From assembly GCF_002968835.1 (NCBI RefSeq), contig NZ_PKQK01000008.1:8357-40356 (forward strand): a stretch of DNA of 32,000 bases, given 5' to 3'. Source of the stretch: Paenibacillus sp. PCH8. Lineage in GTDB: Bacteria > Bacillota > Bacilli > Paenibacillales > Paenibacillaceae. Made by a program: the position numbers and the translations under genes. Every line of letters begins with the position of its first letter. Position 1 is the stretch's first letter. This document shows, one piece after another, positions 3-19,110 of this stretch. Below the pieces are notes generated by a model that was given only the letters and a program-made list of their open reading frames with translations, was not told the origin of the DNA and searched no databases.

Positions 3-494
3 GCAGACCTCTCGACAATTATTATCGACAACACCAATCCATATCAAACCATCAATTCCGTAAGCCGGGTGCTAATTGAAGATAGCCGCGGAAACGGGAA
101 AGGTTATCAATACAGTATGGATGTAACTGATTTCATTTCAGAACCAATGCAAGATAACTCAACAAACTCACAAAGCCTTGTGGTGAGTATTCCGGCCAAT
201 GCGCTGTCGGTCGAGGTACTAAATACCAAAACCTTAAACGGACCGGCAGCAGAGTTGTCTAACCTTGGAAAACATGTCTTCTCAGGTAGTGGACCAGAAA
301 TGCTGGCCACAGCAAGACAGTTTGAAGGCATGGGATACAACGAAATTCCGCTTAACTTCATGCTAGGTGTTCCAGATCGTGTGAAAATTGTCTCATCCGG
401 ATCTGGAAGCAAGTTCGTTCCAGGACAGTCTACGGGTCTGATGGCGGGGATTTATAAAGCGAAGGTTGTTAGTACATTAACATCAGGTATTTAG
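3..494 (+). CDS. 3' end of a larger ORF cut by the window edge; product unknown
   Basis: Frame 3 is open from base 3 (ADLSTIIIDNTNPYQ...) into the listed 69..494 ORF. A GC-rich hairpin follows. Confidence 0.45.
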   Translation, partial: ADLSTIIIDNTNPYQTINSVSRVLIEDSRGNGKGYQYSMDVTDFISEPMQDNSTNSQSLVVSIPANALSVEVLNTKTLNGPAAELSNLGKHVFSGSGPEMLATARQFEGMGYNEIPLNFMLGVPDRVKIVSSGSGSKFVPGQSTGLMAGIYKAKVVSTLTSGI

Positions 495-504
495 GAACTT
501 TGAG

Positions 505-530
505 GGGGCTTCGCTTTTATGAAGCCCCTT
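505..530 (+). terminator. Hairpin terminator candidate
   Basis: GGGGCTTC (505-512) pairs with GAAGCCCC (521-528) directly after the stop at 494. The T-run is weak. Confidence 0.5.
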
Positions 531-713
531 CCAATTGTTTCATATTGAGGGCAAGTGTAAAGGATATTTACAGTAATGAAGAAAATTGAGATGCTTCTCT
601 TCCTACAACCTATCCACCATCCCCACTACCAAATCGATTTCAAATAATCATATGAATATCCATAAAATAGTGTTAGTATATTAGTATATTAATTAATAAG
701 AAATGGAAAGCGA

Positions 714-1061
714 GTGATTCATTTGCTTAATACATATGAGCAATTGGAAAAATCAATCAGGGCCACAAGCAACGGTATTATTGAGAAATACCAGGATAAC
801 ATGATAGACACGTTTCAATGCATGGAACAATTACATACTTGCTGTACGATGGTCGGGACGCTCATTGATAATGAAAGGAAAAGCGGTTCAGATAAAGAGT
901 TGATTATCCGCTTAATTAAACTCCGTGATGATATATCTCAACCAGTCATGCAGATGGTATACGATCAAATTCAATCACTGAATACAAAGAAAAATAAAGT
1001 TAAAAAAGAAATATATAAATTAGAAGTTAGAAAGAATTTATTAAGTGCTGCAGCTGGCTAA
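714..1061 (+). CDS. Hypothetical helical or coiled-coil protein
   Basis: 115-codon ORF with a GTG start and a weak SD, followed by a terminator. No recognisable motif. Confidence 0.4.
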   Translation: MIHLLNTYEQLEKSIRATSNGIIEKYQDNMIDTFQCMEQLHTCCTMVGTLIDNERKSGSDKELIIRLIKLRDDISQPVMQMVYDQIQSLNTKKNKVKKEIYKLEVRKNLLSAAAG

Positions 1062-1099
1062 TCATCAGTACATAATTAAATAGCTTAGATTAGAAAAGG

Positions 1100-1130
1100 A
1101 GGTTGCTTTATAATTTAGCAACTTCTTTTT
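1100..1130 (+). terminator. Rho-independent terminator
   Basis: AGGTTGCT (1100-1107) pairs with AGCAACTT (1117-1124) with one G-U pair, then CTTTTT. Confidence 0.55.
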
Positions 1131-1392
1131 GAATCTGGAAAATAGCTTTGAGCAGAGCTATTAGATAATTTAATGATTAATTAAATAGAGGAGAGTTTTG
1201 AATGGTAGAAGGTATTCTGTTACCTCTTGCATGGTAGGGTTAATTATTGGCGTTGCTATAGTAGCATCTGGATTAACGAATGGCTCAAACGGGAAAGATA
1301 AGTTTGATTGGTCAGCAACCATCAAGCCTGTTTCTTGGGGACTCTAAATGCTTATTGTGTCAATCTATTGGATAGTTAGTAGGGGATAATAC

Positions 1393-1422
1393 TTAGCACT
1401 TTTATTGTAATTGTGTTATAAT
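1393..1422 (+). promoter_or_regulatory. Sigma-A-type promoter candidate for the Ubl/E2/E1 operon
   Basis: TTAGCA (1393-1398), 18-nt spacer, and an extended -10 TGtTATAAT with TATAAT at 1417-1422. Confidence 0.4.
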
Positions 1423-1513
1423 CAGATCATTATGATTTGAGATTAATTTTCTTTGCCTTTTTTAAAAGACAAAGAGTGGTTCCCGGTGAAAACCGGTTTA
1501 AATTTTGGCAATG

Positions 1514-1577
1514 AAGCCGTGGAGAACAATAGCATGCCTATTTAGGTGTGCTTTTTTTGTTTTCTGCGGCTTTTTTT
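1514..1577 (+). promoter_or_regulatory. Nested hairpins with two T-runs in the operon leader (attenuator or terminator-like)
   Basis: Inner hairpin AGCATGCC...GGTGTGCT (1531-1552) is followed by T7. Outer stem AAGCCG (1514-1519) pairs with CGGCTT (1567-1572) and is followed by T7. The structure lies 20-80 nt upstream of the ATG at 1600. Confidence 0.4.
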
Positions 1578-1599
1578 GCTTCTACTGGAGGATAAATAA

Positions 1600-1932
1600 A
1601 TGACATTTGTAAACTTGTCAAAGTTTAAAGAAAACTTAACTACTCAACAACCGCATAGTTCATACTCCAATGGACTGTTCAAAGTAATTGATGCGGCTAT
1701 GTGCAATGTTGAGAGTAATGAGGTTGATTGGAATTCATTCTCTCTACAGGAGGCTCAGCAAGCTCTTAACGAGGCCTTAGCTTATGTAGCAGATGAAATA
1801 GCTGATGAATATTCAGTACGTCCCAATGAAGGGAATGCTATTCATGTGTACCTACATAACAATGAGTCAATGTACCGGTTAAGAAGAATGAAACCAGTAA
1901 ACCAAGAGACGGAAGATAACGAGTTTTTCTAA
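1600..1932 (+). CDS. Hypothetical protein, first gene of the operon
   Basis: GGAGG SD 9 nt upstream of the ATG; 110 aa; acidic C-terminus; no recognised motif. Confidence 0.55.
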   Translation: MTFVNLSKFKENLTTQQPHSSYSNGLFKVIDAAMCNVESNEVDWNSFSLQEAQQALNEALAYVADEIADEYSVRPNEGNAIHVYLHNNESMYRLRRMKPVNQETEDNEFF

Positions 1933-1964
1933 AGATTTCAAATTAGAGAAAGTTAGGTGAGGGT

Positions 1965-2687
1965 ATGAACCGGGCTTATTTTTGTGATGAACAAGTAGGT
2001 CAGATGCAAGCAACGTATGATGCAATCACAATGGTCAAGATGTTACATGAAGCTGGGATAGATGTCCGTAACAATCCGATTAATTATTATTGTTACGGAT
2101 GGGGTGATCAGGCGGATATCTTCCATGAGGCGATCAAAAGAATGTTGTTTGAAAGCTGCAACCAATCCTACTCGGACAATCTCCAAGGAGAGACTTGGGA
2201 GTATAGCATCGTATTTCCGGAAATTGAAGAAATGATGCTTCTATCCAATAATGACGAGGCAAATGAACTGTTAAAAAAGGTAGATATTCTTTTGCATTAT
2301 GAATGTCCAAATTTTGAAATGGGGATGAGCGGAGTTATAAAGGGAAAGAACATCTACATCAAGATAACAGGAAACTATGGGATATATTCGAATTTCTTAG
2401 GCAGAATTATTGAACTGAGAACTATCGTACTTGGGTTCATTGCACATAAGAAGAAGATGCTCATGCAAAAAATCCAAAATATTTTCATGATAAAAATGTT
2501 GTCTCTTAGTCGGCCAATACCATTAGGTATCTCAATTTGGGCACCTAATTCATTCGTATTCATACAACTTATGAAAACGTGTGGGGTAGATTTCTCCACC
2601 GAGATTGCAGAAAATCTCAGTCTAAAGAAGATGTGTTCTTTGTTAAGGGACGTTATAAAAATTGATGAAAAGGATGAGGTAGCATGA
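1965..2687 (+). CDS. Hypothetical protein, second gene of the operon
   Basis: AGGTGAGGG SD. Its stop overlaps the next start (ATGA at 2684-2687), which suggests translational coupling. It is the only open frame across this stretch. Confidence 0.55.
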   Translation: MNRAYFCDEQVGQMQATYDAITMVKMLHEAGIDVRNNPINYYCYGWGDQADIFHEAIKRMLFESCNQSYSDNLQGETWEYSIVFPEIEEMMLLSNNDEANELLKKVDILLHYECPNFEMGMSGVIKGKNIYIKITGNYGIYSNFLGRIIELRTIVLGFIAHKKKMLMQKIQNIFMIKMLSLSRPIPLGISIWAPNSFVFIQLMKTCGVDFSTEIAENLSLKKMCSLLRDVIKIDEKDEVA

Positions 2688-3415
2688 GTTTAATTCTAAC
2701 GGATAATAAAGCGGGTACTGTTGAGCATTCGCTAAGTATTAGTGAAGAAGGTAATGAATATGTAATCAGGTTGCGAGATCATAGCCTACCCTTGGTAGCT
2801 GAATTTCAGAACGGTATTAAGGTAGGAGAAGGTTTTTATACGAATGAGGATTTAGCTGAAGCATTATTACATGCTCAAAACCTCAGTGTCTTTAAAACAC
2901 CTATCCTGCCACGGGGTTGTATTTCATACCTGGAGAGTACATTTAAAACCTATTGTTTCTTCGAAGTTCCATCACATCGCAGAACTGTGTTTTACCATGA
3001 TGCGGTTATCGATGATGTGCCTTTTCCAAATTTAATTTTTGGTTATGAACTTAGGTCAAGAACAGATAGGTTTGAAATATGTAAGGTATTTGTGGGTGCT
3101 TTAGAGAAGGGCTTAACCAATGAAGAGTCGGAAGTATATTTTTATCCCTATACAAACGTAGATAGAACCTATGAAGTATGTTTAGGGTCATCTCAGTTAC
3201 CCCAAATCACACGCATTTCTCAATTATCGACAGTGCCAGAGGTTTTTTTCAATTCACAGAACTCTGACTGTTACTATGGTCATGCAAATGGTAGTGGGCT
3301 TACCTATAGGGAACTATTAGAGAAAGTCAAAGGCAAAGAATTCCTGGATAATTATCTGAAAACGACTGGCCTGACCCTCGCTGATTGGATAAGTGGACTG
3401 ACTTCTCTATCTTAG
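2684..3415 (+). CDS. E2/UBC-like protein (PRTRC protein B-like)
   Basis: YPYTNVDRTYEVCLGSS resembles the E2 catalytic signature (HPN-like Asn, then Cys about 8 residues later, followed by L/G). The Cys166 codon is at 3179-3181. VPFPNLIFGY and RRTVFYHD resemble segments I recall from PRTRC-B-type prokaryotic E2s. The gene sits immediately upstream of the JAB and E1 genes. Confidence 0.65.
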   Translation: MSLILTDNKAGTVEHSLSISEEGNEYVIRLRDHSLPLVAEFQNGIKVGEGFYTNEDLAEALLHAQNLSVFKTPILPRGCISYLESTFKTYCFFEVPSHRRTVFYHDAVIDDVPFPNLIFGYELRSRTDRFEICKVFVGALEKGLTNEESEVYFYPYTNVDRTYEVCLGSSQLPQITRISQLSTVPEVFFNSQNSDCYYGHANGSGLTYRELLEKVKGKEFLDNYLKTTGLTLADWISGLTSLS

Positions 3416-3462
3416 GCCAAATACAACTCAAATAAATTAGAAATAAGCTGGAGGTAATAGAT

Positions 3463-4758
3463 ATGTCTAACGAATTATTTGGTGGTTCTGATCTCTTTTC
3501 ATACTTTGGGGGAGGTTTCGTAGAGCCAACGAAAGTTGATAAGGAAGAAACACTAAAATCAGTGGGTAATACGATCGACATCACTAAACGCATTCAATCC
3601 AGAAGTAAATCCGACAAATCAATTGATGGACCTGGTGTAGACACATGTGAGGGCTCAACTCAGGATGAAATTAATGCTCTATCGGATGAAACACCTATAA
3701 GTGAGTCATCAGCCGATACTGCAGAACTAGGAGTAAAAAAAGATTCGTCCAAAAATGCAGATAGCAAAGATAAAAAGCCCGTCTTTACTAACACAACATA
3801 TATTTGCTACGCCGGTACGTCCAAGCTTTTAACTAAATATTTTGATATTGAAAAGATAGGGCTACTCAGTTTAGAGGATGTTCGCAAACAGTTAGAAAAA
3901 GACTTTCCTGAGATGTCAAAACAAAGAACGTTCATGAGTTTTGACGAGAAGAAGAATATAATAGTACCGGCCATCACAGGTGGGAAGAAGGGGGCTTTGC
4001 CCGTTTACTTCAACGATTCGAGAGCATACTTCTACTCTGCGAGCCAGCTCGTCGAGCATAAAGATAAGTATTCAATCTGTTACCTGGCTGCCAAAAACGG
4101 TTACTATGAGATCCGTGAGAATGGGATCGGGGTTTTTATCTCCAAATGCAACAAGGAAGAGTTAGAAGGATGGAGCAATGCTGATGAATTTTTTGCACAG
4201 CAGCCCAGGGCCCAAGAACTTGATTCTTGTCGCACCGGCTTTAAATCCAAGTTGCCGAAAATCCCTGAATCATTGGTACACCAACTAATATCATTTTTTA
4301 TGGACTATTCTGATAATGATGTAGAAGTGATGGGTGTATTCTACTGGGATACCAAGCAAGGTGTTTATCTATTGGATGTTCCTAATCAAAGTGTGTCGAA
4401 GACTTCAATCGATCAGCATTATACGAGTATGCCATATTGGATTATTAAAGTTTGTGAGATACATTCTCATAATAAAATGGAAGCATATTTCAGTTCTGTA
4501 GATAACGAAGATGAACTAGGCACCCATCTATATGGTGTAATAGGAAACTTAAAACATGCAAAAGGACTCATTCGGTTTGATATTCAAACACGAGCTGGTA
4601 TGGCAGGGAAATTTATTTCCTTGCTTCCTTCAGCACTTCTAGAGGGAGACTATGATAATCAAGAAGATTCATGGAACCTCATTAAAAAAGTGCAGTACCC
4701 TGCAGCCTGGCATGATCGTGTCTTGCTTGATCAGGTGGAGGTGGTTAACCATGATTAA
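3463..4758 (+). CDS. Fusion protein: disordered N-terminus, ubiquitin-like beta-grasp ending in an internal Gly-Gly, linker domain, then JAB/JAMM metalloprotease (PRTRC C + A-like)
   Basis: Complete JAMM motif EIHSHNKMEAYFSSVD (HxHx7Sx2D, nt 4462-4503) with an upstream Glu in DVEVMG. Residues about 106-174 (TYICYAG...LSLEDVRKQLEKDFPEM...NIIVPAITGG) have Ubl/ThiS-like length and pattern and end in GG (nt 3979-3984). GGAGGT SD. Confidence 0.75.
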   Translation: MSNELFGGSDLFSYFGGGFVEPTKVDKEETLKSVGNTIDITKRIQSRSKSDKSIDGPGVDTCEGSTQDEINALSDETPISESSADTAELGVKKDSSKNADSKDKKPVFTNTTYICYAGTSKLLTKYFDIEKIGLLSLEDVRKQLEKDFPEMSKQRTFMSFDEKKNIIVPAITGGKKGALPVYFNDSRAYFYSASQLVEHKDKYSICYLAAKNGYYEIRENGIGVFISKCNKEELEGWSNADEFFAQQPRAQELDSCRTGFKSKLPKIPESLVHQLISFFMDYSDNDVEVMGVFYWDTKQGVYLLDVPNQSVSKTSIDQHYTSMPYWIIKVCEIHSHNKMEAYFSSVDNEDELGTHLYGVIGNLKHAKGLIRFDIQTRAGMAGKFISLLPSALLEGDYDNQEDSWNLIKKVQYPAAWHDRVLLDQVEVVNHD

Positions 4759-12660: not shown

Positions 12661-12902
12661 ATTAACATAATAATTGATAATACCTCTCTATTCGATTGGT
12701 ATATATCTTAACAAAGTGGATATATTAGCTGCTCGCTTAAGAGGATCATCTCATTGAGGTGATCCTTTTGAGCTTCTATACACACTCATTATATTTAGTA
12801 GTTTTTATGTTGTTATGTGCACAAGCATTTAGTAAATCATGATATAATTACTGGTAATGAATTTACCGGAAGTGATAGCTCATATTTCTGTTTTTTAATT
12901 CA

Positions 12903-13985
12903 AGACGGATTGTAATATGAAGTGCGACACCCACTGGAAATAAATAAAAAATGGCCCATGGCCGGATTCGTGTAGAATGAAGTCACCACAACAACCATTC
13001 ACACAAGGAGAATCCACCATGAGCTACACACATCTTAGCATAATCGAACGCAGCAAGCTAGAAATCCTCCACCAGCAAGGCAAAAGTTCACGAGCGATTG
13101 CCAAGGAGCTGGGCCGTCATCATTCGACCATCTGTCGTGAATTGGAACGCATGGTTTCATCGCAATCTTATCAGGCAGAGCATGCCCAGAGTGCTTATCG
13201 GGAACGACGTAAGGCTTCGGTCTCTCGTGGTAAATGGTCAGAAGCCTTAGGGGCTTCTTTTGCGGAAAAACTAGAGGCAACGTGGTCTCCAGAACAAATC
13301 ACAGAACGTTTCCGCGCCGAAGATCTACCTGCGGTTTCCTTTAAAACGATTTATCGCTGGATCTATGCAGGACGTCTTGTTCAAGGTAAATTACAAGTTT
13401 TACGTCACAAAGGGAAGCGTCGGAAACCCGCAGAAACTCGTGGTAAATTCACCATAGGCAGAACCATTTCAGATCGTCCAAAAGAGGTTCGTTCTCGTGA
13501 AACGTTTGGACACTGGGAATTGGATACCGTTGTATCGGGCCGCGGGAGAAGTAAAGGATGCGTAGCCACACTCATTGAACGCAAAACGCGTCTGTTTACC
13601 GCTGTTCTCATGACTGATCGTACCGCATTGTCCATGGAGATTGCGCTTGGTGTAGCCATATCACAGTACCCCAAAGGGACATTTCTCACGGCCACCGCTG
13701 ACCGTGGAAAAGAGTTTGCTTGCTACGCCAATCTGGAAATAACCCATGGCCTGCATGTTTATTTTGCTGACCCGTATTCATCCTGGCAACGCGGTTCCAA
13801 TGAGAATGGGAATGGATTACTTCGAGAGTTCCACCCCAAGGGCACCGATTTCGCTCAAGTAGAGGATGATGCTCTCGCCCACTGCCTTGATTTAATCAAT
13901 CACAGGCCAAGAAAATGCTTAGGTTGGAAAACTGCTCACGAATCTTTCATAGAGGAACTGTCGCACTTCGCTTTACAATCCGTCT
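12903..13985 (+). mobile_element. IS30-family insertion sequence (1083 bp)
   Basis: 27-bp terminal inverted repeats match 24/27: IRL AGACGGATTGTAATATGAAGTGCGACA (12903-12929) versus the reverse complement of 13959-13985. The element encodes a DDE transposase and is visibly more GC-rich than its flanks. Confidence 0.9.
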
Positions 13986-14119
13986 CAATAAAGCGGATAA
14001 TTGTTGTTACTGAAATTTGTGATCTTGCTAATAGGCTTAGGTTCTTTTTTGAAATTAATGAAGAGCACAGTGATCAAAGAAAAACATTATTTAGAAATTT
14101 AGCTATCACTAAAGATTAA
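13019..14119 (+). CDS. IS30-family DDE transposase
   Basis: AAGGAGAA SD before the ATG at 13019. N-terminal HTH (SSRAIAKELGRHHSTICRE), HWELDTV, TADRGKEF and YSSWQRGSNENGNGLLRE match IS30-family signatures. The ORF has no stop inside the IS and continues about 44 codons into flanking DNA. Confidence 0.9.
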   Translation: MSYTHLSIIERSKLEILHQQGKSSRAIAKELGRHHSTICRELERMVSSQSYQAEHAQSAYRERRKASVSRGKWSEALGASFAEKLEATWSPEQITERFRAEDLPAVSFKTIYRWIYAGRLVQGKLQVLRHKGKRRKPAETRGKFTIGRTISDRPKEVRSRETFGHWELDTVVSGRGRSKGCVATLIERKTRLFTAVLMTDRTALSMEIALGVAISQYPKGTFLTATADRGKEFACYANLEITHGLHVYFADPYSSWQRGSNENGNGLLREFHPKGTDFAQVEDDALAHCLDLINHRPRKCLGWKTAHESFIEELSHFALQSVSIKRIIVVTEICDLANRLRFFFEINEEHSDQRKTLFRNLAITKD

Positions 14120-14136
14120 TATAACAAGGAGAACTT

Positions 14137-15999
14137 ATGGAGATATTATATATTTGGTTTAATAATTATGGACCATTTCGACAGCAGGGCTTTCAATTGT
14201 GCGGGGATCTCCGTTTCAAATATGATTTTAATCATGAAGTACTATCAGTTACTAGGAATACGGATTATGTGCAGGATTTCTTTCGAGATCGTATGGCTCT
14301 GGAGAGCGAAACAGCCGTTGTAAAGAACATTACAGGTCTCATTGGTATTAATGGCGCAGGAAAGACAAGTCTACTCAATTATATCAAGCGTTATCTTGTT
14401 CGGGCTATGGGGCGAAAAATTAAAGAAGCACTGGTGGTGATTCGGAATGAGAAAGATGAGACGATTATTCTATATGATAAAAAAGTTATCAACTTAGAGT
14501 CTGTGAATCATGAAGGGCTACTTCATCACATTAAGATTTACAGTGGTACAGAAACCAATCAGCACTTACCGGATAGCTCGGTCATATACTTTTCAAATAT
14601 TTTTGATCACTCTCATGAGGAGACAGCAACAAACTATTACAATCTTTCAACTAACTACCTTATCCAAGGTGATTACCGTAGCAGGTTGGATTTACAGAAT
14701 GGGAATCCGAAGCAAAGTCCAATCGACGTTCATCGGGATGAAGACTTGTGCCGTCAGGTATTTTTCGTCTATGACTACCCTATTCGATTTCCAGAACAGG
14801 AACTGCCCTTCCGTTTGCCCAAGAATCTAGTGATTAAAATCCGAAACATCGATAGGGATGATTTGGGTAAGCTCGGGCAATTCGCAAATTTCTACTTAGA
14901 TCTTAATAAATATGTAACCGGTAAGATTGATGAAATATCATCACGTAACTCTGATAGGAAGTATAGCCCTAACCTGGATAGGAGAAGAGAAATATTTATA
15001 TTAACAACCTATCGCGCTATGATTTACTCTTTCTTGAAGGAAATAACTGTCTTTTCAAATCTTACGCTATTAGAGGAAGATGATCCGAATCTTTCTCTTA
15101 CAAATGTTCAGAGCGAACAAGCGACTTTCACCAATTATGTGAGGAATTTGTTTAATTCTACACTGAGTCGTTTTAATGATGATCCAACTATTAAATTGTG
15201 GCTTGATAATCTAATATTTATGGTAGATCATATATATGATTACTCGATATACTTAATACGTACAGCTAATACGCCAGATGAATATTCCCTCAAGTTACCA
15301 ATTATGCAAGGCGAAATCATGAAAAGCCCTTCATATGATTTCATAAATGTATATCGACGCTCGTACACTGTATTTCCATACCTTGATTTCGAATGGCAAC
15401 TCAGTTCAGGACAACGAGCGTTTTTAAATGTTTTCTCCAGATTGTATTCGAGAAATGACGGAGAAGTATTTGGCGACAACGTCAAGTTAACGAAACATGT
15501 TCTGCTACTAATTGATGAGGGAGAATTATACTTCCATCCAGAGTGGCAACGTCGGTTTATAGATACACTCATTCGATTCTTGTCCGTAGTCTATGGTTCT
15601 AAACGAAGAGTACAGATCCTGTTGACCTCGCATTCTCCATTCATACTGTCGGACTTACCCAACTATTGCGTCTCTTTACTCCAGCATAACGATAGACGGA
15701 CGAAAGTTAAAGATGGAACGGTAGAATTTAATACTCTTGCTGCTAATATCCACGATTTGCTGGCAAATGGCTTTTTCATGAAAGCAAACATTGGCGAATT
15801 CGCTCTGCAAAAGATTAATGACGCGATTACAAGGCTAAGGTCTCTTCAAGTTCACTCAGGTGTGGAAACTATTCGCTCACTCAGCAGTCGCGAAGAAGAA
15901 ATTGACTATCTCCGTTCCATAATCCAGCTTGTTGGTGAACCAATCATTGCTGGTCGGATGCTTGAGTTGTTAGATGAGCGGGACATAGATATGGAGTGA
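14137..15999 (+). CDS. ptuA: Septu-like PtuA (AAA15/21, ABC-type ATPase)
   Basis: AAGGAGAA SD. Walker A GINGAGKTS, Walker B-like LLLIDEGELYFHPEWQ, TSHSPF. Directly abuts an HNH gene. Confidence 0.75.
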   Translation: MEILYIWFNNYGPFRQQGFQLCGDLRFKYDFNHEVLSVTRNTDYVQDFFRDRMALESETAVVKNITGLIGINGAGKTSLLNYIKRYLVRAMGRKIKEALVVIRNEKDETIILYDKKVINLESVNHEGLLHHIKIYSGTETNQHLPDSSVIYFSNIFDHSHEETATNYYNLSTNYLIQGDYRSRLDLQNGNPKQSPIDVHRDEDLCRQVFFVYDYPIRFPEQELPFRLPKNLVIKIRNIDRDDLGKLGQFANFYLDLNKYVTGKIDEISSRNSDRKYSPNLDRRREIFILTTYRAMIYSFLKEITVFSNLTLLEEDDPNLSLTNVQSEQATFTNYVRNLFNSTLSRFNDDPTIKLWLDNLIFMVDHIYDYSIYLIRTANTPDEYSLKLPIMQGEIMKSPSYDFINVYRRSYTVFPYLDFEWQLSSGQRAFLNVFSRLYSRNDGEVFGDNVKLTKHVLLLIDEGELYFHPEWQRRFIDTLIRFLSVVYGSKRRVQILLTSHSPFILSDLPNYCVSLLQHNDRRTKVKDGTVEFNTLAANIHDLLANGFFMKANIGEFALQKINDAITRLRSLQVHSGVETIRSLSSREEEIDYLRSIIQLVGEPIIAGRMLELLDERDIDME

Positions 16000-16935
16000 A
16001 TGAATATGATTAATATTTACGAAGTGTCACAGCAAGTTCTAGCAGAAAGGCATTATGAGGCTGTTGTCGAAGAATTAATGAAGAAAGACTCTAAAAGCCC
16101 TGCGACTCTAGAAAAATGGTTCAAAGCATTCAATGTTAACTATACTTTGAAGCATATCATCACGGCGAGACCAGAAGATCTGAGGATAATGATGAGTAAG
16201 TGCAAATCAGACAAGTATCCCGAATGTATTCTGGAACTTTACGATATGTATGTGAAGAAGTTCTCAAAATCGGATCGATACATCGGTGACCGTAAACAAA
16301 AGTATAATGCAGTACAACTTATGAAGAGCCTAGAGATTAAGGTATGTCCTCTTTGTAACCGGAATTATATTAACAATGTAAAATCGAAGGGGCGGTTGGA
16401 AAAGCGTACAGGGCAGCTTGATCATTTTCATAATAAGTCATCTTACCCATTTCTTTCAATGTCATTCTTCAACTTAGTACCTGCCTGCTATGGGTGCAAT
16501 CATACGAAGGCTAGGTTTGAGCTTGAACAGACGCCCTACGCCGAGGTTGATTTGGATCCGCTCATTCGGTTTAGCGTGTCATTTAACAAAATTGAAGATA
16601 TATTTGATGAGCAACACTTAAGGGTTTCTCTAGACAATCATCCGTCCATTCAGCAGAATGTTGATGTTTTGGGTCTTTTAGAAACGTACACAGAGGAACA
16701 TAATGAAGATGCCTTTGCAGTTGTGAAGGCTTTCAAAAATTATAACGACGTTTGGCAGAATTCGATGATTGGAAATATAAAAGGACTGTTTAAAGATAAG
16801 GATCACTTGTCTGATATGTTATTAAGCGAATATATTGGTCTGAAGGATAGACTAAAGTCTAAGCCATTAGCGAAATTAAAAAAGGATATTTATGAGCAAC
16901 TGGAAGCGTACCAGCAGAGTAGTATATCAAGATAG
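16000..16935 (+). CDS. ptuB: Septu-like PtuB (HNH nuclease)
   Basis: CPLCNRNY...QLDHFHNKSSYPF...NLVPACYGCNHTK matches an HNH/TIGR02646-like pattern. The start is adjacent to the ptuA stop (TGAATG). Confidence 0.75.
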   Translation: MNMINIYEVSQQVLAERHYEAVVEELMKKDSKSPATLEKWFKAFNVNYTLKHIITARPEDLRIMMSKCKSDKYPECILELYDMYVKKFSKSDRYIGDRKQKYNAVQLMKSLEIKVCPLCNRNYINNVKSKGRLEKRTGQLDHFHNKSSYPFLSMSFFNLVPACYGCNHTKARFELEQTPYAEVDLDPLIRFSVSFNKIEDIFDEQHLRVSLDNHPSIQQNVDVLGLLETYTEEHNEDAFAVVKAFKNYNDVWQNSMIGNIKGLFKDKDHLSDMLLSEYIGLKDRLKSKPLAKLKKDIYEQLEAYQQSSISR

Positions 16936-17145
16936 ATAAAGTTTAGTTGATAGTTTTGACTATTAACAGTTTCTAAGCCCTGAGGATTGTCAGATTTCTT
17001 CCTCACTCTTAGCAGAGTAAGATTATTGGTGGTTCGTATGCTATACTATTCTTTTTCGCTCATTTTCTGTAATTTGATGTTTGATATCAATGAGAAGTGT
17101 TTCTTCAATATTGATGGAATGAGCCATTAATTAAATTCATAAATT

Positions 17146-17169
17146 CACTTATTCATATTACAATCCGTC
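17146..17169 (-). repeat. Solo IS30-type terminal repeat (IRL-like, inverted)
   Basis: The reverse complement of 17152-17169 (GACGGATTGTAATATGAA) is identical to 18 nt of the IS left end (12904-12921). After a 3-nt insertion, AAGTG matches again. Confidence 0.75.
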
Positions 17170-17184
17170 ACAAGTAAAAGATTT

Positions 17185-17216: not shown

Positions 17217-17584
17217 GTATTTTCATATGAAATAAGAGAATATATAGGATACTAACTTAAATTTCACATTTTAAAAGCTGAATAAGAATTTTTGTGAGTA
17301 GAAATTTGAATTGGAGAACATTGGGTTTAAGTCACAATTCCCGAGCAGTTTTTTTGTGATATAATCGAAGAATTATAAGTTCCGATAATTTAAAGGTATT
17401 GGAACTTACGAGAGTTAACTTACTTACATTTTAAAGATACTTTACATAATAATATGTATGTTAACTAAGTTGAACATGATTATCTTTTTATTGATAATTT
17501 ACACTTCCATGTATTATGCCCAATTTACTTAATTAAATACATTTAAGTGCACAATATTACAAAAAAGGAGTTGAGTTATACTAC

Positions 17585-18219: not shown

Positions 18220-19110
18220 ATGTCCAAATCAAAAGCGGACAATACAGTTATATCTTACAAAAGTGACTGGGCACATTTTAAATCATGGTGTATCAAGTAT
18301 GAGCAACCATACTTGCCAACCACCGATGAAGCTTACGGGTCCTATTTAACAAGCTTAGCAGCTTCCGGGTATAAAGTTAGTACGATTCAACGTAGGATCT
18401 CCTCCATATCTCGAGCACATATAATGAAGAAACTAGAATCACCTAATACTATTCATATCAAAACGATATGGTCCGGAATTAAAAGAATCCATGGTTCTGC
18501 CGAGGTAGGAAAGAGTCCAATCACAGTTGACACATTAAAAGAGATATTACAGCATGTTCCGGAGAATAGAATGATAGGTTATCGTGATAGGGCTCTGCTA
18601 TTAATCGGCTTTAGTGGGGCATACAGAAGGTCCGAATTAGTGAATTTTGATGTGAAGGACATCCGAATTACTCCTGAAGGGATGATTATGCGGATCGCAA
18701 AATCAAAAACAGACCAGGAGGGGAAAGGTGAATTCATTGGTATTCCATATGGATCACGGTTAGAGACTTGCCCGGTCCGTAGTTATAATGAATGGATAAA
18801 ACAATCAGGCATCACTGATGGAGCAATATTCAGACCTGTTAATAAACATAGCCATGTTTCAGAAAAGAGACTCTCAGACAAGGCCGTAGCATTGATAATT
18901 AAGAAGTATGTAGCTGCTGTAGGATTGGACCCAGCACTTTATGCCGGCCACAGCATACGTTCAGGTTTTGCTACCTCAGCTGCTATGCTTGGTAAAAGTG
19001 AAAGGTCGATAAAGGAACAAACACGTCATGCTTCTGATGCCATGGTTAGAAGATATATTCGGATGGGTTCTTTATTTACCGAGAATGCTGCTCAAAATAT
19101 CGGCCTTTAG
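18220..19110 (+). CDS. Tyrosine recombinase / integrase
   Basis: N-terminal SAM-like domain, then R (AYRRSEL), HSIRSGFAT (HxxR) and TRHASDAMVRRY (catalytic Tyr). Confidence 0.85.
   Translation: MSKSKADNTVISYKSDWAHFKSWCIKYEQPYLPTTDEAYGSYLTSLAASGYKVSTIQRRISSISRAHIMKKLESPNTIHIKTIWSGIKRIHGSAEVGKSPITVDTLKEILQHVPENRMIGYRDRALLLIGFSGAYRRSELVNFDVKDIRITPEGMIMRIAKSKTDQEGKGEFIGIPYGSRLETCPVRSYNEWIKQSGITDGAIFRPVNKHSHVSEKRLSDKAVALIIKKYVAAVGLDPALYAGHSIRSGFATSAAMLGKSERSIKEQTRHASDAMVRRYIRMGSLFTENAAQNIGL

What the first reader, a model, noticed from the sequence alone, without database searches (positions are those of the whole stretch)
12903..17169. Septu-like ptuAB pair bracketed by inverted IS30-family ends (intact IS on the left, solo IR remnant on the right)
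The intact IS (12903-13985) has 27-bp inverted repeats. A third copy of the terminal sequence lies 234 bp downstream of ptuB, facing inward: the reverse complement of 17152-17169 is identical to 18 nt of IRL (GACGGATTGTAATATGAA). It is IRL-type rather than IRR-type, because it carries TATG where IRR has AGCG. This implies the remnant of a second copy in inverted orientation. Next to it, a 28-codon minus-strand ORF (17041-17127, MAHSINIEETLLIDIKHQ...) faintly resembles the transposase N-terminus (HLSIIERSKLEILHQ). This is a composite-transposon-like arrangement of 4.27 kb carrying an anti-phage system. It suggests IS30-mediated capture or mobilisation of Septu. The transposase could still act on IRL plus the distal IR.
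Basis: partly seen in the sequence, partly recalled or inferred. Interest (0 to 1): 0.65.

Follow-up and report, generated by a model that had tools for sequence, protein, structure and literature searches.

The report
IS insertion plus IS scar flanking Septu-like genes
A two-gene Septu-like anti-phage operon on a Paenibacillus plasmid has one whole IS30-family insertion sequence just upstream and an 18-base scar of a second copy downstream, but the evidence favours two separate, ordinary insertions over a transposon that captured or moves the defence genes.

Summary
The sequence observation holds. An IS30-family element lies at 12904-13984. An exact 18-nt copy of its left end faces inward at 17152-17169, 234 bp after ptuB. 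That 18-mer occurs 7 times in the 6.75-Mb genome, and the other 6 are IS termini. It is IRL-type (AATATG block in 24/24 left ends, 1/24 right ends), and its outer flank fits the element's A-rich target. So a second, inverted copy once sat here.

The composite-transposon reading is not supported.
- The whole IS has its own perfect 4-bp target duplication (TCAA|TCAA). This is the usual length for this IS group (16 of 24 copies).
- The 4.27-kb unit has no duplication (TCAA vs ACAA).
- The scar lacks the conserved inner IR block (positions 17-26).
- No IS sequence follows the 18 nt, and the 28-codon ORF matches the transposase no better than chance.
- The unit occurs nowhere else in the databases searched.
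- ptuAB relatives elsewhere carry no IS30 ends.

The likelier link is regulatory. The IS sits between a TGATATAAT promoter and ptuA, has lost its own stop codon, and forms a hybrid TTTACA-18-GATAAT promoter facing ptuA.

The gene pair best matches PADLOC candidate PDC-M62. This is ordinary and of low interest.

The parts
12840..12848 (+). TGATATAAT extended -10 box. Candidate native promoter of the ptuAB operon, now cut off from ptuA by the IS.
   Evidence: One of only five TGNTATAAT boxes on the + strand of the window. At least three of the others sit just upstream of an operon start (1414, 17357, 29293). Consensus match only; this is inference.
12900..12903 (.). Left copy of the 4-bp target-site duplication (TCAA) of the whole IS
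   Evidence: Identical to 13985-13988. 16 of 24 copies of this IS group have an exact 4-bp duplication.
12904..13984 (+). IS30-family insertion sequence, 1081 bp, G+C 48%. IRL is 12904-12929 and IRR is 13959-13984.
   Evidence: Ends defined against 23 other copies. It is 99.4% identical to a copy in genome G096. The transposase scores 290 bits against NCBIfam NF033563 (cut-off 80) and hits Pfam HTH_38 plus rve.
13019..14119 (+). Transposase ORF, 366 codons with an SD-preceded ATG. The last 45 codons are encoded by flanking DNA because the stop inside IRR is lost (T at 13974; other copies have G, giving TGA).
13972..14001 (+). Hybrid outward promoter. The -35 box TTTACA lies inside IRR (TTGACA in most other copies), followed by an 18-nt spacer and the -10 box GATAAT in flanking DNA, pointing at ptuA.
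   Evidence: (10 of 12 matches), for the other copies. Precedent for an IS30-family -35 donation: ISAba125 (PMC9330008). Function is inferred.
13985..13988 (.). Right copy of the 4-bp target-site duplication (TCAA)
14137..15999 (+). PtuA-like ABC-type ATPase, 620 aa. Motifs: Walker A GINGAGKT at residue 70, LSSGQ at 422, Walker B LLLIDE at 456, SHS at 498.
   Evidence: PADLOC PDC-M62A 1.6e-131 over the full length; PtuA models 1e-19. Pfam AAA_21 and AAA_15. The top 11 PDB sequence hits are all PtuA chains. Motifs.
16000..16935 (+). PtuB-like HNH nuclease, 311 aa (or 309 aa from the ATG at 16006). Motifs: CPLC at 116, DH at 141, NLVPAC at 158, CYGCNHTK at 163. Abuts ptuA.
   Evidence: PADLOC PDC-M62B 4.7e-44; PtuB 1e-7. 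Weak TIGR02646 match. The motif residues are invariant in 13 homologues.
17041..17127 (-). 28-codon ORF. No evidence that it is a transposase remnant or a gene.
   Evidence: 340 of 2000 shuffles score at least as well against the transposase N-terminus.
17152..17169 (-). Solo IRL remnant covering positions 1-18 of the 26-bp IR, with its outer end at 17169. Scar of a lost, inverted IS copy.
17170..17180 (.). Outer flank of the scar (ACAAGTAAAAG). ACAA would be the surviving half of the lost copy's duplication, and the A-run fits the target preference.
   Evidence: outward positions +7 to +9 are A in 31-35 of 48 ends. Similar flanks are seen at IS ends in G007 and G015.

Best explanation
A resident two-gene Septu-like operon (ABC ATPase plus HNH nuclease; PADLOC candidate type PDC-M62) lies in the cargo and defence array of a low-G+C Paenibacillus plasmid. 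It was hit twice, independently, by a genus-wide IS30-family element that prefers T-run/A-run spacers.

The older insertion went in 234 bp downstream of ptuB, in inverted orientation. A later deletion or replacement, not made by the transposase, removed all of it except the outer 18 nt of its left end.

The younger insertion is a simple transposition with its own TCAA duplication. It went into the leader between a TGATATAAT promoter and ptuA.

The bracket of inverted ends is therefore a by-product of two hits in neighbouring AT-rich spacers. It is not a vehicle. The scar lacks the inner transposase-binding block and should be inert.

The present-day link between the IS and the defence genes is most likely transcriptional. 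The IS has lost its stop codon, so translation runs to 18 nt before the ptuA ATG. Its right end also donates a -35 box to a hybrid promoter facing ptuA.

Shown: the anatomy, the duplications, IR conservation, and the absence of other copies in the databases searched. Inferred: the order of events, inertness of the scar, and promoter function.
For: - The IS's own 4-bp TSD is TCAA|TCAA, and 4 bp is the norm for this group (16/24 copies).
- The 18-mer is IS-terminus-specific and IRL-type (24/24 vs 1/24), and its outer flank fits the A-rich target consensus.
- Similarity ends after 18 nt, and there are no other IS fragments on the 158-kb contig.
- IR positions 17-26 are conserved in 47-48 of 48 ends and are missing from the scar. 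In IS30 the inner IR is the binding domain (PMC3299598).
- The IS is at 48% G+C; ptuAB is at 38%, against 37% for the window.
- The IS is widespread in the genus (75 of 93 genomes matched a 12-kb query spanning the locus, nearly all hits falling on the IS segment), with many truncated copies, so scars are expected.
- ptuAB relatives in three other contexts have no IS30 ends.
- Hybrid promoter and stop loss.
Against: - No empty-site allele or sister plasmid could be found, so the order of events and the pre-insertion state rest on duplication logic alone.
- The outer flanks TCAA and ACAA agree at 3 of 4 positions. A once-perfect duplication with one later mutation is not excluded.
- The promoters are consensus matches only.
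- What truncated the second copy is unknown.
Confidence: 0.65

Rival explanations
1. In-situ or fossil composite transposon (a softened form of the first reader's idea). Two complete, inverted IS copies once bracketed ptuAB and could have moved it as a unit. The right copy then decayed to 18 nt, leaving a dead composite.
For: A second, inverted copy did exist. IS30-family composites are known, for example the ISAba125-bounded aminoglycoside-resistance transposon (PMC9330008). In the same genome, two copies on contig C2 share the outer flank ATAT, a possible 29-kb composite.
Against: The two copies may never have been whole at the same time. The whole IS is 99.4% identical to a copy in another species and has its own TSD, which suggests a recent arrival. 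There is no TSD around the unit and no second copy of the unit. The candidate native promoter lies outside the unit.
Confidence: 0.17
2. The unit was delivered to this site as one transposition event using IRL (12904) and the distal IRL-type end (17169), either as a composite or as a 'transporter IS' with passenger genes.
For: The inverted ends face outward. The outer flanks TCAA and ACAA match at 3 of 4 positions.
Against: The perfect TCAA|TCAA duplication around the short IS would have to be coincidence (about 1 in 256 by uniform odds). The distal end has only 18 of 26 IR positions. ptuAB has the plasmid's composition. No other copy was found anywhere searched.
Confidence: 0.06
3. The scar did not arise here. 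It came in already truncated, on DNA brought by recombination or cassette exchange within the plasmid's shuffled cargo array.
For: Nucleotide similarity to ptuAB relatives stops at the gene borders (14123-16931). An earlier follow-up describes the neighbouring genes as shuffled cargo (e1-2457724, not tested here).
Against: Nothing marks a recombination border near 17152 or 17170. This reading differs from the best explanation only in where the truncation happened.
Confidence: 0.1
4. The 18-nt match is chance or part of an unrelated repeat.
For: None found.
Against: 0 of 100 shuffles gave a match. All 6 other genomic occurrences are IS termini. The match starts exactly at the terminal base of the IS.
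Confidence: 0.01

Closest known systems
ISAba125-bounded transposons of Acinetobacter (IS30 family): the aminoglycoside-resistance composite in which the left IS copy supplies a -35 box, and loci that keep only an ISAba125 end remnant upstream of aphA-6 (PMC9330008)
   Same: An IS30-family element sits next to cargo genes. A -35 hexamer in the IS end pairs with a -10 box in flanking DNA. Truncated IS remnants are left beside the cargo.
   Different: There, two IS copies and movement of the unit are documented. Here there is one copy plus an 18-nt scar, no duplication around the unit and no second locus. The cargo is a defence pair, not a resistance gene.
Restriction-modification genes flanked by IS elements or by inverted repeats with short target duplications (Furuta, Abe & Kobayashi 2010, PMC2853133)
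   Same: Defence genes bracketed by inverted terminal sequences in a transposon-like layout.
   Different: Those cases were backed by empty-site alleles and matching duplications. Neither is available or present here.
Septu (PtuA ATPase plus PtuB HNH nuclease) and PADLOC candidate PDC-M62
   Same: An adjacent ABC-type ATPase and HNH nuclease. Both PDC-M62 models match over the full length. PDC-M62 calls largely coincide with Septu calls in the Bacillus cereus group (PMC11811056). The PDB hits are PtuA chains.
   Different: Septu and retron PtuA/PtuB models match only the ATPase C-terminal half and the HNH core, far below curated cut-offs. PDC-M62 is an untested candidate (bioRxiv 10.1101/2024.01.29.577857).
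IS30 (E. coli) and typical IS30-family elements
   Same: A single HTH plus DDE transposase, about 1.1 kb, 26-bp IRs with an outer and an inner conserved block, strong target preference, and an ORF that ends in or at IRR.
   Different: The target duplication is 4 bp here (16/24 copies), against the 2-3 bp I recall as typical for the family (from memory, not checked). This copy has lost its stop codon.

Membership tests
IS30 family insertion sequence | Single transposase with an N-terminal HTH and a DDE (rve) catalytic domain that matches the family model | tested here: met
   NCBIfam NF033563 at 290 bits (cut-off 80). Pfam HTH_38 2.5e-15 and rve 4e-9.
IS30 family insertion sequence | About 1.0-1.2 kb with terminal inverted repeats of 20-30 bp | tested here: met
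   1081 bp with 26-bp IRs matching 23/26. The ends are shared with 23 other copies.
   A duplication is present but it is 4 bp in 16 of 24 copies, including this one. The family norm is from memory.
Composite (compound) transposon | Two IS copies flanking the cargo | tested here: not met
   One copy plus 18 nt. No further IS sequence is found in the window or on the 158-kb contig.
Composite (compound) transposon | Target-site duplication flanking the whole unit | tested here: not met
   TCAA on the left and ACAA on the right. The short IS instead has its own TCAA|TCAA.
Composite (compound) transposon | Both outer ends are complete, transposase-competent IRs | tested here: not met
   The distal end lacks IR positions 19-26, which fall in the block conserved in 47-48 of 48 ends. 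Competence itself was not assayed.
Composite (compound) transposon | The same unit at another locus, or an empty-site allele | tested here: not met
   None found in the own genome, 93 genus genomes, 400 family genomes, PLSDB, or the metagenome and viral scans. Close sister strains were not available.
Septu (PtuAB) | PtuA: ABC/AAA_15/AAA_21-type ATPase with intact Walker motifs | tested here: met
Septu (PtuAB) | PtuB: HNH nuclease encoded immediately downstream | tested here: met
   The CxxC...DH...N...CxxCN motif is invariant in 13 homologues. PADLOC PtuB 1e-7. The genes abut at 15999/16000. The fold could not be confirmed because the AlphaFold model has pLDDT below 50 across the HNH core.
Septu (PtuAB) | Matches curated PtuA/PtuB models above their cut-offs | tested here: not met
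   NCBIfam PtuA 53 bits (cut-off 500) and PtuB 15.9 bits (cut-off 150). These models are for the retron Ec78 type.
Septu (PtuAB) | Protects against phage | not testable with these tools
   Needs a plaque assay.
PADLOC candidate system PDC-M62 | Both component HMMs matched over the full length in adjacent genes | tested here: met
   PDC-M62A 1.6e-131 (residues 1-616) and PDC-M62B 4.7e-44 (residues 18-302).

The most novel reading that the evidence does not exclude
The segment is the fossil of an IS30-family composite transposon that once carried a Septu-like system between Paenibacillus replicons. Alternatively or in addition, the surviving IS has taken over expression of the defence operon through its hybrid promoter and stop-less transposase read-through. 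Defence output would then be tied to IS transcription.
Probability: 0.15. Interest if true: 0.4.

Novelty: new member of a known kind. Interest (0 to 1): 0.2.

Why it matters
Little changes if the best explanation holds. IS insertions and IS scars beside defence genes on plasmids are routine, and IS- or repeat-flanked defence genes have been described since at least 2010 (PMC2853133).

The useful points are practical:
- A bracket of inverted IS ends is not enough to call a composite transposon. The target duplications decide it.
- This IS group makes 4-bp duplications and has a clear T-run/A-run target preference.
- The IS probably rewires transcription of an untested Septu-like (PDC-M62) operon. 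That is cheap to test.

Tried and rejected
- **Empty-site or sister-allele search.**
  - Looked up the exact PtuA and PtuB products (not on record).
  - Ran exact-pattern scans of metagenome and viral contigs for the ptuA-upstream flank, and of metagenome contigs for the flank beyond the scar (none).
  - Searched PLSDB in near and distant mode (only IS hits).
  - Searched the genus and family genomes with the flanks (only the IS, the recombinase gene and small pieces match).
- **MITE idea.** No second IR-like sequence occurs anywhere in the window.
- **Remnant transposase ORF.** Rejected by shuffling tests.
- **'IRL-type is undecidable'.** I first thought so because the C8 copy has TATGAA at both ends. 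I dropped this once 24 copies showed 24/24 vs 1/24.
- **PtuB structure.** The AlphaFold model (mean pLDDT 66.7) has pLDDT below 50 across residues 112-181, which is the HNH core. I ran no fold search because the matches would be meaningless.
- **IS30 IR paper.** Szabo et al. 2010 on IS30 IR organisation (PMC2897661) is not held. I relied on the summary in PMC3299598.
- **C2 composite as a positive control.** The alignment through the joined flanks in G025 is only about 65% identical beyond the junction, so it is suggestive and not proof.


Full report
**Context**

The window is G000:C9:8357-40356. Contig C9 is 158.7 kb at 39.6% G+C, while the large contigs are at 45-47%. The only plasmid-database hits are Paenibacillus IS30-family elements, and the nearest ptuA relative in GTDB genomes is in Paenibacillus provencensis.

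The window carries an E2/JAB/E1 cassette, a HEPN protein, a Lon-type protease, a ParB-like gene and a Xer-like recombinase. It therefore looks like the cargo and defence array of a plasmid.

**Checking the observation**

The inverted repeats of the IS and the 18-nt exact inverted match (12904-12921 against 17152-17169) are both present (I1 and I3). No shuffle of the window gives such a match.

In the whole 6.75-Mb genome the 18-mer occurs 7 times. Six of these are the termini of other copies of the same IS on C1, C2 and C8, and the seventh is the solo one.

I aligned 24 full copies, 6 from this genome and 18 from other species of the genus. This fixes the element as GACGG...CCGTC, 1081 bp, at 12904-13984.

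The IR has three parts:
- an outer conserved block at positions 1-10;
- an end-specific middle block at positions 11-16, which reads AATATG in 24/24 left ends and CAAACC-like in 23/24 right ends;
- an inner conserved block AAGTGCGACA at positions 17-26, present in 47-48 of 48 ends.

The lost copy was therefore inverted relative to the whole one.

Its outer flank, ACAAGTAAAAG, fits the element's target preference. Outward positions +7 to +9 are A in 31-35 of 48 ends, and near-identical flanks occur at IS ends in G007 and G015. The outer junction of the scar thus looks like a genuine insertion junction.

Two details do not hold. First, similarity to the IS stops after 18 nt. The DNA inside the scar matches neither end of the IS better than shuffled sequence, and the 28-codon ORF scores no better against the transposase N-terminus than 340 of 2000 shuffles. 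There are no other IS fragments on C9 and no other IR-like sequences in the window.

Second, the 'intact' IS has a defect. It differs at 6 positions from a 99.4% identical copy in G096. All six changes alter the protein. One of them, T for G at 13974, turns the TGA stop inside IRR into TTA. The transposase therefore runs 45 codons into flanking DNA and stops at 14119, 18 nt before the ptuA ATG.

**Is it a composite transposon?**

The target duplications decide this. Sixteen of the 24 copies have an exact 4-bp duplication, one has 5 bp, two have 3 bp and five have none.

The window's IS has TCAA on both sides (12900-12903 and 13985-13988). Its two flanks were therefore one continuous sequence, ...TTTTTTAATTCAATAAAGCGG..., before a simple insertion.

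The outer flanks of the 4.27-kb unit are TCAA and ACAA, which is not a duplication. For the unit to have arrived as one piece, the perfect duplication around the short IS would have to be coincidence, and the unit's own duplication would have to have mutated.

Other lines of evidence point the same way:
- The scar lacks the inner IR block. For IS30, footprinting places transposase binding in the inner part of the IR, with the tips left unprotected (summarised in PMC3299598). So action on 'IRL plus the distal IR' is unlikely. I did not assay this.
- The unit, its junctions and its flanks occur nowhere else in what I searched. That covers the genome, 61 relatives, 93 genus genomes, 400 family genomes, PLSDB and the metagenome and viral contig scans.
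- ptuAB relatives at 68-75% identity share only the coding region, 14123-16931. They lie in other contexts: after a TniQ gene in a Tn7-like setting, and in an element with RPA-type replication and FtsK/topoisomerase genes. None has IS30 ends or a transposase nearby.
- ptuAB has the plasmid's composition (38% against 37%), whereas the IS is at 48%.

The order of events therefore remains an inference.

**What it most likely is**

My reading is two independent hits by a common IS in the AT-rich spacers on either side of a resident operon. Of 93 genus genomes, 75 matched a 12-kb query spanning the locus, and nearly all the listed hits fall on the IS segment, many as fragments.

The downstream copy is older and was cut down to 18 nt by an event that was not transposase-mediated, because transposase events keep IS ends whole. 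The upstream copy is recent.

The functional link is probably transcriptional. A TGATATAAT extended -10 box at 12840-12848 is one of only five such boxes on the + strand, and at least three of the others sit directly upstream of operon starts. The IS lies between this box and ptuA.

The right end of the IS carries TTTACA (TTGACA in most copies). It is spaced 18 nt from GATAAT in the flank, at 13972-14001, and this is among the best promoter matches in the region. IS30-family elements are known to donate such -35 boxes, with ISAba125 as the example (PMC9330008). All promoter statements here are consensus-based inference.

**The genes**

The 620-aa protein has complete ABC-ATPase motifs and Pfam AAA_21/AAA_15 domains. 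Its PDB sequence hits are PtuA chains from Septu and type I-A retrons.

The 311-aa protein has a zinc-ribbon HNH motif that is invariant across 13 homologues, and it weakly matches TIGR02646/PtuB.

Both proteins match PADLOC's PDC-M62A/B over the full length, at 1.6e-131 and 4.7e-44, far better than the PtuA/PtuB models. PDC-M62 is one of 145 untested candidates (bioRxiv 10.1101/2024.01.29.577857). Its calls largely coincide with Septu calls in the Bacillus cereus group (PMC11811056). 'Septu-like' is therefore fair, and 'Septu' in the strict sense is not shown.

**Verdict**

A second inverted copy did exist, but capture or mobilisation is not supported.

IS-flanked or repeat-flanked defence genes (PMC2853133), and IS30-family composites with remnants (PMC9330008), are known kinds. 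This locus does not meet the composite-transposon tests. Interest is low.

Noticed in passing
G000 contig C2:235491-264471 (outside the window): Two copies of the same IS group in inverted orientation share the outer 4-bp flank ATAT, with about 27 kb between them. This could be a real composite transposon of about 29 kb. In genome G025 an alignment runs through the joined flanks, but it is only about 65% identical beyond the junction.
   Followed up: partly
window 17357-17408: A TGATATAAT promoter box is followed by the palindrome AAGTTCCGATAAT..TATTGGAACTT. It lies upstream of the ParB-like gene and the Xer-like recombinase (18220-19110). The palindrome is conserved (81-89%) upstream of the recombinase homologues in G008 and G031. 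It may be a recombination site or an operator.
   Followed up: partly
L027 (Logan SRR31403844 contig), 492-4751: A 68%-identical ptuAB pair lies directly after a TniQ gene and next to SMC-like, MComp1 and CTD1 genes. This is the same defence pair as likely Tn7-like cargo in a defence cluster.
   Followed up: no
window 12904-13984 vs L009 (G096:C36:68747-69827): All six nucleotide differences between these two 99.4%-identical IS copies change the protein: A26V, A100T, K124T, T145A, T199P, and stop-to-Leu at codon 319. G096:C36 also carries a 67%-identical homologue of the window's recombinase, so it may be a related plasmid.
   Followed up: partly
24 IS copies across the genus (L009-L026, G000 C1/C2/C8/C9): This IS30-family group makes 4-bp target duplications (16/24 copies). 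It inserts in T-run...A-run sites, and matches often extend 8-20 nt beyond the IS ends. I recall 2-3 bp as typical for the family.
   Followed up: partly
L036-L040 and L042 (Logan contigs with the 70% ptuAB homologue): Six independent assemblies break at exactly the same base, 670 nt upstream of ptuA. This suggests a repeat or a strain-variable boundary there. The longer NCBI contig L035 continues without a transposase.
   Followed up: no
own genome, IS copies on C1, C2 (263392 and 274549): Three of the six copies of this IS group in the genome have broken transposase frames (longest open frames 179-306 codons). Decay of copies is therefore common in this strain.
   Followed up: no
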